Origin: a virus
Lineage: Duplodnaviria > Heunggongvirae > Uroviricota > Caudoviricetes
Length of the DNA: 24,800 nt
Direction: 5' to 3' (one strand)
Virus record (IMG/VR): IMGVR_UViG_2872192773_000009
Shown: one piece after another, positions 5,267-5,908 of the stretch
How positions within the stretch are numbered: the first letter of the stretch is position 1
Layout: each line of letters begins with the position of its first letter
Notes under the pieces: generated by a model
The model's input: the letters and a program-made list of their open reading frames with translations, nothing else
The model's database searches: none
Told to the model about the DNA's origin: nothing
Program-made: the position numbers and the translations under genes

Positions 5267-5328
5267 GTTGGAGTCATTACCAAGAAAGAGAAGGTAAAGA
5301 AGGTAAGTCCATACTGTCTCCACTATAA

Positions 5329-5356
5329 AAAAACCGCCAATTTCTGGCGGCTTATA
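5329..5356 (-). terminator. Intrinsic terminator of the exported-protein gene
   Basis: Minus-strand hairpin gccgccagaaattggcgg followed by TTTTTTT, immediately 3' of the stop at 5359. Confidence 0.5.
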
Positions 5357-5358
5357 TA

Positions 5359-5841
5359 TTAATCATCATTAATATCTTTCATATTCAATTTGCAATTTTC
5401 GTAGGTCACTCCCGACTCGCCATTAACATTAACTCCAGCTCTGATATTCCCGTTTTCTTTTACATCTACAAAAAACTGGCCTCTTGGCATCTTGAACGCA
5501 AATGTAAAACCAACAGTATCTGAATCAAAATCATCATCTTTATATATTGGGATCAAAAATGTCATCGTCGCTGGTGATGCATTGTTTGCAAAATCAAATA
5601 CACCTATACTTTTGCCGAATTCATAAGAAGCTTTTCTCAATATAATCGCACCGCTGGCAGAAGGGGATGGGCACGATATCCTCAGTTGTCTGAATCCATC
5701 TGTATCCAAGTCAACGTCATTATCTGCAGATGTTTTAACGTTACTAATAAATCGTGAAACAATCTCCTCATTTGTTAGTATTTTCGCCTGAGCACAGCAA
5801 GAGGTTAATATTGCAACCGTCATTAAAAATGGCTTTATCAC
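5359..5841 (-). CDS. Exported protein of unknown function, possibly a lipoprotein; low-GC cargo gene
   Basis: 160 aa. N-terminal signal peptide MIKPFLMTVAILTSCCAQA with a lipobox-like LTSC. Markedly AT-rich compared with the adjacent tape-measure gene. Own terminator; no recognisable family. Confidence 0.5.
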   Translation of the reverse strand: MIKPFLMTVAILTSCCAQAKILTNEEIVSRFISNVKTSADNDVDLDTDGFRQLRISCPSPSASGAIILRKASYEFGKSIGVFDFANNASPATMTFLIPIYKDDDFDSDTVGFTFAFKMPRGQFFVDVKENGNIRAGVNVNGESGVTYENCKLNMKDINDD

Positions 5842-5908
5842 AAAACAAACTCCATTGTTAGCATGTTACGCGATAATTTTGCCTCATCTTTCACCACAAA
5901 AAAAGAAC

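What the first reader, a model, noticed from the sequence alone, without database searches (positions are those of the whole stretch)
5282..5908. Low-GC exported (lipo)protein gene directly after the tape measure gene
Where a contractile-tail operon should continue with baseplate genes, there is a self-contained unit: short upstream spacer, a 160-aa ORF with signal peptide and lipobox-like LTSC, and a clean intrinsic terminator, all markedly AT-rich. Prophage-encoded surface lipoproteins beside tail or receptor-binding genes are often superinfection-exclusion or serum-resistance factors (for example Cor, Llp, Bor). This protein matches none that I recognise.
Basis: partly seen in the sequence, partly recalled or inferred. 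Interest (0 to 1): 0.55.

Follow-up and report, generated by a model that had tools for sequence, protein, structure and literature searches.

The report
Exported-protein cargo gene in tail operon
A small AT-rich gene wedged between two tail genes of a decayed Shigella/E. coli prophage is an add-on cargo gene ("moron") for a secreted beta-barrel protein of unknown function. It fills a slot where related phages carry other envelope-directed add-on genes, so it is a fair but untested candidate for blocking incoming phages.

Summary
Window 5359-5841 (minus strand) is a 160-aa ORF with a GTG start and GGAG RBS. It is 36.9% GC against 52% in the tape-measure (TMP) gene, and an intrinsic terminator follows at 5331-5353.

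It is not a tail part. phiP27 (TMP 98% identical), SfIV and ST64B join TMP directly to the Mu-N-like gene. In intact relatives the unit sits as a ~600-bp insert between those two genes. Here IS1 (4514-5281) has removed everything after the first 31 nt of N.

The protein belongs to the narrow, uncharacterised PHROG 5586. Homologues all carry a Sec signal peptide ending A-x-A|K and two conserved cysteines. The model (pLDDT 85) is a helix plus an eight-stranded barrel with no close structural relative.

The LTSC lipobox occurs only in this clade and its Yersinia relative, so lipidation is plausible but not a family trait.

Of 110 distinct TMP-N junctions, 42 are empty, 24 carry this family and at least 35 carry other AT-rich, terminator-capped cargo, nearly all with export or membrane signals.

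My best reading is an envelope-acting lysogen cargo, possibly superinfection exclusion. No promoter or function is shown. Interest is moderate.

The parts
5909..7858 (-). Tape-measure protein gene (649 aa), the upstream boundary of the cargo slot. Its conserved 3' end is the left recombination flank.
   Evidence: PF10145 E = 1.4e-44. It is 98% identical to the phiP27 TMP gene. The last ~120 nt align with phiP27 at 96% up to the insertion point.
5842..5908 (-). 67-nt AT-rich spacer with the RBS (GGAG at 5853-5850). No convincing sigma-70 promoter.
   Evidence: Sequence. The consensus scan finds no minus-strand promoter here. My own scan of 8 representative homologous loci finds no conserved -35/-10 pair. 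The spacer shrinks to 16 nt in homologue L056.
5359..5841 (-). Cargo ORF 'X': 160-aa precursor of an exported acidic beta-barrel protein (mature ~141 aa, 15.6 kDa, pI 4.6), family PHROG 5586.
   Evidence: Translation. phrog_5586 E = 9.7e-89, full length. No Pfam, NCBIfam, PADLOC or PDB-sequence hit. AF2 pLDDT 85.3 and pTM 0.79, helix 24-41 plus 8 strands. dN/dS 0.1-0.2. pI and mass.
5785..5841 (-). Signal-peptide codons (residues 1-19, MIKPFLMTVAILTSCCAQA), holding both a lipobox (L12-T-S-C15, nt 5797-5808) and an SPase-I site (AQA|K20).
   Evidence: PS51257-type pattern match and hydropathy. The A-x-A|K site aligns across all homologues, and the lipobox occurs only in clade A and Yersinia.
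5324..5353 (-). Rho-independent terminator (hairpin 5331-5353, core CCGCCA/TGGCGG, followed by a U-run) that abuts the RBS of the next tail gene.
   Evidence: Scan. Fold -16.1 kcal/mol, z = -3.6. An equivalent hairpin plus T-run sits at the same place in every clade and behind every other cargo family in this slot.
5282..5321 (-). Remnant of the Mu-N-like 'DNA circularization'/baseplate gene: RBS GGAG at 5321-5318, ATG at 5312-5310, then only 31 nt of coding sequence before IS1.
   Evidence: 100% identity to intact locus L001 stops 31 nt into the N gene. N is annotated right after the unit in L001, L002 and L003.
4514..5281 (+). IS1 (768 bp, InsB ORF 4763-5266) that truncates the prophage and removes the baseplate and fibre genes. 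Context, not part of the unit.
   Evidence: Inverted repeats at 4514-4531 and 5264-5281. InsB translation. The same junction occurs in S. flexneri SFBU1023, collinear at 99.9%.

Best explanation
The unit is a horizontally acquired cargo cassette (a 'moron') sitting in a recombination slot between the tape-measure gene and the Mu-N-like hub gene of an SfV/phiP27-type prophage (HK97-like head, Mu-like contractile tail, lambdoid Q-dependent late operon).

**Shown**
- Close relatives lack it, so it is an insertion.
- It is AT-rich and ends in its own intrinsic terminator.
- It encodes a Sec-exported protein under purifying selection.
- The protein is predicted to be an N-terminal helix plus an eight-stranded up-and-down beta-barrel with two invariant cysteines.
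- Other phages of the group carry unrelated, mostly export- or membrane-targeted cargo genes of the same build at the same junction.

**Inferred**
- The two cysteines (C57 after strand 1, C150 in strand 8) form a periplasmic disulfide that closes the barrel.
- In this clade the precursor is probably lipidated at Cys15 (the +2 residue is not Asp) and tethered to the inner face of the outer membrane. In other clades the protein is soluble in the periplasm.
- Q-modified polymerase reads through the terminator during lytic growth, so the baseplate genes are still expressed. Unmodified transcripts that enter or start near the cassette stop at the terminator.
- The protein does not enter the virion. 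It works in the cell envelope as a binding or blocking protein.
- The most likely role is protecting the lysogen against incoming phages at the stage when the tail tip, TMP and hub cross the periplasm. This would be superinfection exclusion analogous to HK97 gp15, P1 Sim, Cor or Llp.

**My confidence by part**
- Accessory exported cargo, not a tail part: about 0.9.
- Lipid anchor in this clade: about 0.55-0.6.
- Superinfection exclusion as the function: about 0.3.
For: **Insertion**
- phiP27 (TMP 98% identical), SfIV and ST64B have TMP followed by N after only 15-33 nt.
- Alignment places a ~600-bp insert between the last TMP codons and the ATG of N.
- In 38 IMG/VR contigs from three subclades (at least 93%, ~50% and 40-46% identity) the gene sits immediately upstream of N, and TMP lies just upstream in all but one. 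That one is L036, where no TMP or tube match was found.

**Foreign composition**
- 35-41% GC against 47-57% in the flanks, in every clade.

**Terminator**
- Present in every clade.
- A Q antiterminator gene lies on the same strand at 16450-17193 (PF06323, E = 4.8e-91).

**Export**
- All full-length homologues that retain an N-terminus have n/h/c signal peptides ending A-x-A|K. Both cysteines are conserved.
- The lipobox fits PS51257. It is retained in Yersinia (74% identical) while the hydrophobic core of the signal diverged (with my reading of the frame).

**Not structural**
- Distant homologues sit in phage-plasmid accessory regions beside ParA, toxin-antitoxin and repressor genes.

**Cargo slot**
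- 110 distinct junctions retrieved by searching with N: 42 empty, 24 X, 15 phrog_5485 (TM anchor), 11 phrog_8976 (signal peptide), 6 bPH_2 (2 TM), 1 lipoprotein (LAGC|D), 1 other exported protein, 1 bPH_1, 9 unassigned.
- All family-assigned cargo has a T-run of at least five within 45 nt before N. A representative of each family is AT-rich.

**Real protein**
- dN/dS 0.10-0.20. AF2 pLDDT 85.

**Precedent**
- The HK97 gp15 moron lies next to the TMP gene and excludes phages at DNA entry (PMC3594210).
Against: - No sigma-70 promoter consensus was found in the spacer or the TMP 3' end, and none is conserved between clades. In L056 the spacer is only 16 nt. Expression from the repressed prophage is therefore unproven, and the gene may be made only with the late operon.
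- PADLOC gives no hit.
- In this window the flanking tail genes (sheath, tube, chaperone, TMP) are also intact, so persistence of the ORF in Shigella does not by itself show selection for it.
- The lipobox is absent from most of the family.
Confidence: 0.55

Rival explanations
1. It is an outer-membrane lipoprotein that masks a receptor, working like Cor or Llp. After lipidation at Cys15 it binds and inactivates the outer-membrane receptor used by this phage group.
For: LTSC fits the PS51257 lipobox with Cys at position 15, and the +2 residue is not Asp. The motif L-[TI]-S-C-C-x-Q-A is kept in all clade A variants and in Yersinia although the rest of the signal peptide diverged. One alternative occupant of the same slot is a clear lipoprotein, LAGC|D. 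Known lipoproteins of this kind are encoded beside tail or receptor-binding genes (established knowledge; Cor is discussed in PMC3594210).
Against: Clades B and C and all distant homologues lack any cysteine in the signal peptide and have SPase-I sites. Whatever the family does, it therefore does not need a lipid anchor. The AQA|K SPase-I site is also intact here. There is no sequence relation to Cor, Llp or Bor. The receptor of these phages is not established here.
Confidence: 0.15
2. It is a late-expressed accessory gene, transcribed only with the Q-antiterminated tail operon. It acts in the periplasm during lytic growth, for example by conditioning the envelope before lysis or by stopping progeny from wasting themselves on lysing cells and debris, as proposed for T5 Llp.
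For: No recognisable promoter of its own. Same strand and tight spacing with TMP, only 16 nt in L056. Its divergence (40-50%) tracks that of the neighbouring N gene (50-53%), suggesting long residence within the tail module.
Against: A conserved terminator immediately downstream serves no obvious purpose for a purely late gene and would threaten baseplate expression without antitermination. Homologues also occur outside any late operon, beside the repressor and partition genes of phage-plasmids. The AT-rich cassette build is shared with unrelated cargo.
Confidence: 0.2
3. It is a host-fitness or virulence cargo unrelated to phages. One version is a periplasmic inhibitor of an attacking enzyme such as lysozyme (like PliC/MliC). 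Another is a small-ligand-binding calycin-type barrel.
Confidence: 0.1
4. It is a tail or baseplate structural or assembly component specific to this subgroup.
For: Its position is conserved inside the tail module, and its divergence is similar to that of the neighbouring tail genes.
Against: A Sec signal peptide would remove it from the cytoplasm, where tails assemble. It is absent from phiP27, SfIV and ST64B, including one with a 98% identical TMP. 42 of 110 junctions are empty and at least 35 hold unrelated genes. Homologues occur outside tail modules. There is no match to any tail family.
Confidence: 0.02

Closest known systems
HK97 gp15 moron (superinfection exclusion; Cumby et al. 2012, reviewed in PMC3594210)
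   Same: A single small gene inserted in a tail operon right next to the tape-measure gene. It has deviant GC content and its own terminator, its product goes to the envelope, and related phages lack it (one search compared).
   Different: gp15 is a small inner-membrane protein related to YebO, with a documented promoter and a documented phenotype. The protein here is a 141-aa soluble or lipid-anchored periplasmic beta-barrel with no sequence relation, no demonstrated promoter and no tested phenotype.
Cor (phi80/N15/HK022), Llp (T5) and Bor (lambda) prophage lipoproteins
   Same: Small phage-encoded exported proteins. Cor and Llp are encoded near tail or receptor-binding genes. The window protein has a lipobox-type signal.
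   Different: No sequence similarity (no Pfam or annotated PHROG match). Most members of this family are not lipoproteins. No target receptor is known.
PliC/MliC periplasmic lysozyme inhibitors
   Different: hhalign probability 1%. The MliC motif tyrosine is missing. This protein has an extra N-terminal helix and a different cysteine pattern. It is phage-borne rather than chromosomal.
Cargo and defence hot spots of temperate phages (known from my own reading for P2-like phages and lambdoid moron sites; not tested here)
   Same: A fixed junction between conserved genes where unrelated accessory genes alternate between otherwise near-identical phages.
   Different: The slot lies inside the tail operon, between TMP and hub. 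Its occupants are almost all small export- or membrane-targeted proteins of unknown function rather than recognised cytoplasmic defence systems (no PADLOC hit for X).
PHROG 5586
   Same: Full-length match, E = 9.7e-89. This is the family it belongs to.
   Different: The PHROG carries no functional annotation, so membership names the family but explains nothing.

Membership tests
Phage moron (Juhala/Hendrix definition as given in PMC3594210) | Extra DNA relative to closely related phages | tested here: met
   phiP27, SfIV and ST64B have TMP followed directly by N. A ~600-bp insert was mapped. 42 of 110 junctions are empty.
Phage moron (Juhala/Hendrix definition as given in PMC3594210) | [quoted passage not shown] | tested here: met
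   36.9% against 52.1% GC, and GC3 31% against 55%. The same contrast holds in all clades.
Phage moron (Juhala/Hendrix definition as given in PMC3594210) | Own transcription terminator | tested here: met
   Hairpin plus U-run at 5331-5353, conserved in position across clades and across cargo types.
Phage moron (Juhala/Hendrix definition as given in PMC3594210) | Own promoter | tested here: inconclusive
   No consensus hit in the spacer. No conserved -35/-10 pair across 8 representative loci. Only the weak element GGCAAAAT is shared with Yersinia.
Phage moron (Juhala/Hendrix definition as given in PMC3594210) | Expressed from the repressed prophage | not testable with these tools
   Needs RNA-seq or 5'-RACE on a lysogen.
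Bacterial lipoprotein (Sec/SPase II substrate) | Lipobox [LVI][ASTVI][GAS]C after an n/h region, with Cys at positions 15-35 (PROSITE PS51257 rule) | tested here: met
   FLMTVAILTSC matches, with Cys15 and K3 in the n-region.
Bacterial lipoprotein (Sec/SPase II substrate) | Lipobox cysteine conserved among homologues | tested here: not met
   Conserved only in clade A and Yersinia. Clades B and C and distant homologues have no signal-peptide cysteine and use A-x-A|K sites.
Bacterial lipoprotein (Sec/SPase II substrate) | Lipid modification and globomycin-sensitive processing | not testable with these tools
   Experimental. No SignalP or LipoP was available.
Cor / Llp / Bor exclusion or serum-resistance lipoproteins | Sequence homology to the family | tested here: not met
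   No Pfam hit at E <= 10 for 14 family members. The only PHROG hit is the unannotated phrog_5586.
PliC/MliC lysozyme inhibitors (PF09864) | Profile similarity and the S-x-S-G-x-x-Y loop motif (motif recalled from the literature; SASGARY seen in E. coli MliC) | tested here: not met
   hhalign probability 1%. The family has SASG followed by hydrophobic residues and no Tyr at +3.
Mu-like tail or baseplate structural proteins | Present in all functional relatives, cytoplasmic, and matching a tail family | tested here: not met
   Absent from phiP27, SfIV and ST64B. Has a signal peptide. No tail-family hit.
Calycin-like eight-stranded up-and-down beta-barrels | Fold-level similarity to solved members | tested here: inconclusive
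PHROG 5586 | Full-length HMM match | tested here: met
   E = 9.7e-89 over residues 1-160 of a 161-position profile. The clade B representative gives 1.5e-83.
Known anti-phage defence systems (PADLOC-DB 2.0) | HMM match to a defence protein | tested here: not met
   0 families at E <= 1 for this protein and for clade B.

The most novel reading that the evidence does not exclude
The protein is a new kind of periplasmic superinfection-exclusion factor. It would be a soluble or outer-membrane-tethered beta-barrel that captures the tape-measure/hub assembly of SfV/P27-type contractile tails as it crosses the periplasm. On this reading the TMP-N junction of these phages is a dedicated, exchangeable slot for envelope-level anti-phage genes, with at least seven unrelated families, none characterised.
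Probability: 0.15. Interest if true: 0.65.

Novelty: new member of a known kind. Interest (0 to 1): 0.38.

Why it matters
If the exclusion reading is right, this family and the other occupants of the same slot would be a compact set of uncharacterised envelope-level anti-phage proteins.

- **How common:** clade A is in 11 and clade B in 101 of 5426 complete E. coli genomes. The exact protein is seen on at least 1000 contigs, mostly Shigella.
- **Easy to test:** single small genes, with isolated phages of the same group available.
- **Practical relevance:** phage therapy and typing of Shigella and E. coli, and the question of how contractile-tail phages cross the periplasm.

If it is only another moron of unknown function, the practical gain is better annotation. 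It is an exported accessory protein, not a tail protein, and the lipoprotein call should not be extended to the whole family.

Tried and rejected
- **First AlphaFold run.** The 10-sequence alignment gave pLDDT 44 and was unusable. A run with distant homologues added gave pLDDT 85.
- **Fold libraries.** afdb50 was not available. Foldseek against BFVD and PDB gave nothing below E = 0.01.
- **Sequence libraries.** Pfam, NCBIfam, PADLOC and PDB sequences gave nothing for X.
- **The search for related loci.** The 14-sequence alignment failed for lack of a conserved stretch. A narrower alignment worked. The single genome-contig scan returned only two true loci plus three weak Firmicutes hits, which my own tblastn did not confirm, so I treat them as spurious.
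- **Plasmid collection.** A distant homologue as query gave one marginal hit.
- **Promoter hunting.** The tool scan and my own scan of 8 clade representatives found no consistent element.
- **Literature.** Searches for the accession, for phage vB_EcoM-720R4 and for TMP/N-junction morons found nothing on this family. The LF82 moron paper concerns other prophages.
- **MliC/PliC hypothesis.** Tested by hhalign and motif, and rejected.
- **L196 slot occupant.** Tested as a remote relative of X. The result was inconclusive: hhalign probability 6.8%, E = 0.005 over the C-terminal 48 residues.
- **DxDxDG-like loop.** D44-L-D-T-D-G49 was considered as a calcium site. I dropped it as a family feature because clade C and distant homologues delete that loop.
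Full report
**1. What is in the sequence**

On the minus strand, window 5359-5841 is a 160-aa ORF.
- It starts at GTG 5841, the most upstream possible start, with GGAG 8 nt before it.
- It lies 67 nt downstream of the stop of a 649-aa tape-measure (TMP) gene at 5909-7858 (PF10145, E = 1.4e-44).
- The TMP gene follows a tail chaperone, a tube gene and a sheath gene of the Mu type.
- Five nt after the ORF's stop comes a GC-rich hairpin with a U7 run at 5353-5331. The scan pairs, and the fold gives -16.1 kcal/mol, z = -3.6.
- The ORF is 36.9% GC (GC3 31%) against 52.1% (GC3 55%) for the TMP gene. 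Only 1.8% of equal-sized windows in the 24.8 kb are as AT-rich.

**2. Why the operon stops here**

Immediately beyond the terminator are a GGAG, an ATG (5312-5310) and 31 nt that are 100% identical to the start of the Mu-N-like 'DNA circularization' gene of an intact relative. At 5281 a complete 768-bp IS1 begins, spanning 4514-5281. The baseplate and fibre genes are therefore missing through an IS1-associated deletion.

The same junction occurs in S. flexneri SFBU1023, which is collinear with window 3001-9000 at 99.9%. Other features point to a decayed Shigella-type prophage: ipaH, the CssrB sRNA and further IS elements in the head and tail genes.

**3. It is an insertion, not a tail gene**

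In intact relatives the order is TMP, this ORF, N, baseplate genes P, gp45, gp46, J and gp48, then fibres. These include E. coli FDAARGOS_944, STEC309 and phage vB_EcoM-720R4.

Phages of the same group join TMP to N with only 15-33 nt between them. These are phiP27 (TMP 98% identical at the DNA level), SfIV and ST64B. The SfIV paper groups SfI, SfII, SfV, phiP27 and ST64B as relatives (PMC3851460).

Alignment with phiP27 places a ~600-bp insert between the last TMP codons and the ATG of N. Among 50,697 phage records only vB_EcoM-720R4 encodes a homologue.

**4. The protein family**

Database searches gave little:
- Pfam, NCBIfam, PADLOC and PDB sequences give nothing.
- PHROGs gives a full-length hit to phrog_5586, function unknown.
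- A word-indexed search of 5.8 billion proteins finds 9 clusters.
- An exhaustive profile search of 1.84 billion representatives finds 18 hits, three of them repetitive large proteins that I discount.

IMG/VR yields 38 loci in three subclades: A (at least 93% identical to the window protein), B (~50%) and C (40-46%). In all 38 the gene lies immediately upstream of N. TMP lies just upstream in all but L036, where no TMP or tube match was found.

Abundance:
- Clade A is in 11 of 5426 complete E. coli genomes.
- Clade B is in 101 of 5426.
- The exact window protein is on at least 1000 contigs, mainly S. flexneri and S. sonnei.

Deep pairwise dN/dS is 0.10-0.20, so it is a real protein under constraint.

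More distant members (24-31% identity) lie in phage-plasmid accessory regions next to ParA, toxin-antitoxin pairs, IncFII RepA and a cI-like repressor. One lies after TMP together with a HIRAN-domain protein that has a hydrophobic C-terminal segment. A gene that moves between such contexts is cargo, not a structural part.

**5. Export and the lipoprotein question**

Every full-length homologue that retains an N-terminus has a basic n-region, a hydrophobic core and a c-region ending A-x-A just before a lysine. Examples are LNSFA|K, LTTFA|K, ISFA|K, LAIA|K, ITLA|K, ALA|K and AMA|K. In the window protein AQA|K aligns with these sites.

Two cysteines in the mature part are conserved wherever the sequence is complete. 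They are C57 in the motif C-P-x-x-S-A-S-G, and C150 in C-K near the C-terminus. That fits a periplasmic disulfide, which is my inference.

The lipobox LTSC (Cys15) fits PROSITE PS51257. It is kept in all clade A variants.

In the Yersinia homologue (74% identical) the annotated start gives MMLISCCSQAQ, with no n-region. Adding one A to the A6 run just upstream restores MKKTYLLVFMMLISCCSQA|Q. That signal peptide has the same length, and its L-I-S-C-C-x-Q-A is conserved although the hydrophobic core diverged (my reading). This argues for constraint on the lipobox in this sub-lineage.

Clades B and C and all distant members have no cysteine there. So the family is ancestrally a soluble periplasmic protein. 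This clade may have become outer-membrane-tethered, since the +2 residue is Cys rather than Asp. I put that at about 0.55-0.6. No signal-peptide predictor was available.

**6. Fold**

With the 14-sequence alignment, AlphaFold2 gives mean pLDDT 85.3 and pTM 0.79. Residues 1-22 are disordered, a helix spans 24-41, and eight strands follow.
- Foldseek against PDB and BFVD finds nothing below E = 0.01.
- The PliC/MliC idea fails. hhalign against E. coli MliC gives 1% probability and aligns only the signal peptides, and the motif tyrosine is missing.

The mature protein is ~141 aa, 15.6 kDa, pI 4.6. The fold suggests a binding or blocking protein but does not say what it binds.

**7. The junction is a cargo slot**

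I searched IMG/VR with the N proteins of clades A, B and C and removed identical junctions. That left 110 distinct TMP-N junctions:

| Occupant | Junctions | Targeting signal |
|---|---|---|
| Empty | 42 | - |
| This family (X) | 24 | Sec signal peptide |
| phrog_5485, 176 aa | 15 | N-terminal membrane anchor |
| phrog_8976, ~165 aa | 11 | SPase-I signal peptide |
| bPH_2 protein (PF03703; phrog_3707, category 'moron') | 6 | two membrane helices |
| Lipoprotein, MKKALIILSCLFCLAGC followed by D | 1 | lipobox |
| Other exported protein (L196) | 1 | signal peptide |
| bPH_1 protein | 1 | none (cytoplasmic) |
| Unassigned | 9 | - |

Every family-assigned cargo has a T-run of at least five within 45 nt before N's start. 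In a representative of each family this follows a GC hairpin that abuts N's RBS, and the gap is 31-40% GC against ~50% in the TMP gene.

The L062 lipoprotein cassette ends in almost the same terminator as the window unit: CCGCCAGAATCGGCGG against CCGCCAGAAATTGGCGG. Its TMP is 94% and its N about 96% identical to the window lineage. Cargo therefore appears to be swapped between a conserved TMP 3' end and the terminator-RBS-N flank.

58 of the 59 family-assigned cargo genes encode proteins with an export or membrane signal. None has a known function.

**8. How it most likely works**

Shown: it is an exchangeable, AT-rich, terminator-capped cassette for a Sec-exported protein, and it is dispensable for virions.

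Inferred:
- The prophage carries a lambdoid Q antiterminator on the same strand (16450-17193, PF06323). Late transcription should therefore ignore the terminator and reach the baseplate genes, while unmodified polymerase stops at it. This is the classical moron logic (PMC3594210).
- A terminator kept behind every cargo type argues that some transcription here is not Q-modified, which implies expression outside the late programme.
- Against this, I found no convincing promoter, and in one homologue the spacer is only 16 nt. Any promoter would have to lie within the TMP 3' end. The alternative is late-only expression.

Functionally, the position beside TMP and hub, the envelope targeting of nearly all slot occupants and the HK97 gp15 precedent make superinfection exclusion in the periplasm the best single guess (about 0.3). 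The alternatives are a late-phase periplasmic role and a phage-unrelated host-fitness role.

**9. Comparison with the known, and novelty**

It works like a moron and meets three of that class's five defining features. The promoter is inconclusive and expression is untestable here.

It is not a member of Cor, Llp, Bor, PliC/MliC, any tail family or any PADLOC defence family. It is a member of PHROG 5586.

I rate it a new member of a known kind, namely a moron-encoded envelope protein. The comparative observation that the TMP-N junction is a slot for envelope-directed cargo adds some value. It yields a short list of easily testable candidate exclusion genes.

**10. Verdict**

| Question | Rating |
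|---|---|
| Observation | confirmed |
| Interest | 0.38 |

On the interpretation: accessory exported unit, yes. Lipoprotein, only plausibly and only in this clade. Function, unproven.

On interest: the finding is solid and tidy but not surprising to a phage specialist, and the function is still open.

Noticed in passing
window 4514-5281 (+), with flanks 4505-4513 and 5282-5290: A complete 768-bp IS1 whose flanking 9-mers differ, so there is no target-site duplication. On its left it interrupts an IS3-family transposase ORF (about 3654-4513, minus strand). On its right it cuts the N gene after 31 nt. This fits an IS-mediated deletion of roughly 8-9 kb of baseplate and fibre genes that are present in E. 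coli FDAARGOS_944.
   Followed up: partly
L062:1920-2375 (IMGVR_UViG_2189573020_000003): The same TMP-N slot holds an unrelated 151-aa ORF with a textbook lipoprotein signal (MKKALIILSCLFCLAGC, +2 Asp, predicting inner-membrane retention). It is 35.8% GC and ends in nearly the same terminator as the window unit. No Pfam or PHROG match.
   Followed up: partly
IMG/VR loci, e.g. L109 and L160 (phrog_5485), L120 and L136 (phrog_8976), L171 and L172 (bPH_2), L203 (bPH_1), L196: At least five further unrelated cargo families occupy the TMP-N junction. All are AT-rich and terminator-capped, and nearly all have signal peptides or membrane helices. All are of unknown function. L196 may be a very remote relative of the window protein (hhalign E = 0.005, probability 6.8%).
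   Followed up: partly
L054:2387-3423: In one 3.5-kb contig a 31%-identical homologue is preceded, after the TMP gene, by a 195-aa HIRAN-domain protein (PF08797) with a hydrophobic C-terminal segment. That makes a two-gene cargo. A membrane-tethered DNA-end-binding domain beside an exported protein hints at action on incoming DNA.
   Followed up: no
L009:5975-6004 (Yersinia enterocolitica contig JBRUQM010000038.1): The Yersinia homologue's signal peptide is out of frame with an upstream ATG that follows a good context. One extra A in the A6 run would restore MKKTYLLVFMMLISCCSQA. This could be a real frameshift, a homopolymer sequencing error or a slippage-prone tract. The contig was seen in 4 samples.
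   Followed up: partly
L020 and L058 (IMGVR_UViG_2874968258_000001): In this contig the homologous ORF is itself interrupted by an IS1 copy. InsA- and InsB-like ORFs lie in the gap, and the junction gap is 1373 nt instead of 596.
   Followed up: no
window 16450-17193 (-) and 15945-16251 (-): A lambdoid Q antiterminator gene (PF06323) is followed by a cluster of four tRNA genes, the arrangement typical of Stx/P27-type prophages. The Q gene matters for reading through the cargo terminator.
   Followed up: partly
window 1004-1183 (-), 1311-2954 (+), 19152-19327 (-): The Rfam CssrB Shigella sRNA lies next to an intact 547-aa IpaH-type E3 ligase effector gene (LRR plus NEL domains). A sok/CssrC antitoxin RNA lies further along. 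Both indicate a Shigella-type chromosome.
   Followed up: no
window 10682-11500 (-), 13442-15335 (-): Further IS elements lie in the region where intact relatives carry the head-tail joining genes. One is an IS3-family rve transposase. The other has IS66-family pieces, with an apparently truncated DDE domain. The tail-terminator gene appears cut, with a 118-aa ORF at 10298-10654.
   Followed up: no
window protein residues 40-49 (nt about 5695-5724): The acidic loop D-N-D-V-D-L-D-T-D-G contains a DxDxDG-type calcium-binding-like motif in clade A. It is degenerate in clade B and Yersinia, and deleted in clade C and distant homologues.
   Followed up: partly
TMP 3' ends in window, L003, L009, L056, L004: The last ~40 nt of the TMP gene (ATGAAAATCACCCATGATGTTGGGTATTCTCC) are unusually conserved at the DNA level between phages whose TMPs are otherwise only 50-70% identical. 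This may be the left homology arm for cargo exchange.
   Followed up: no
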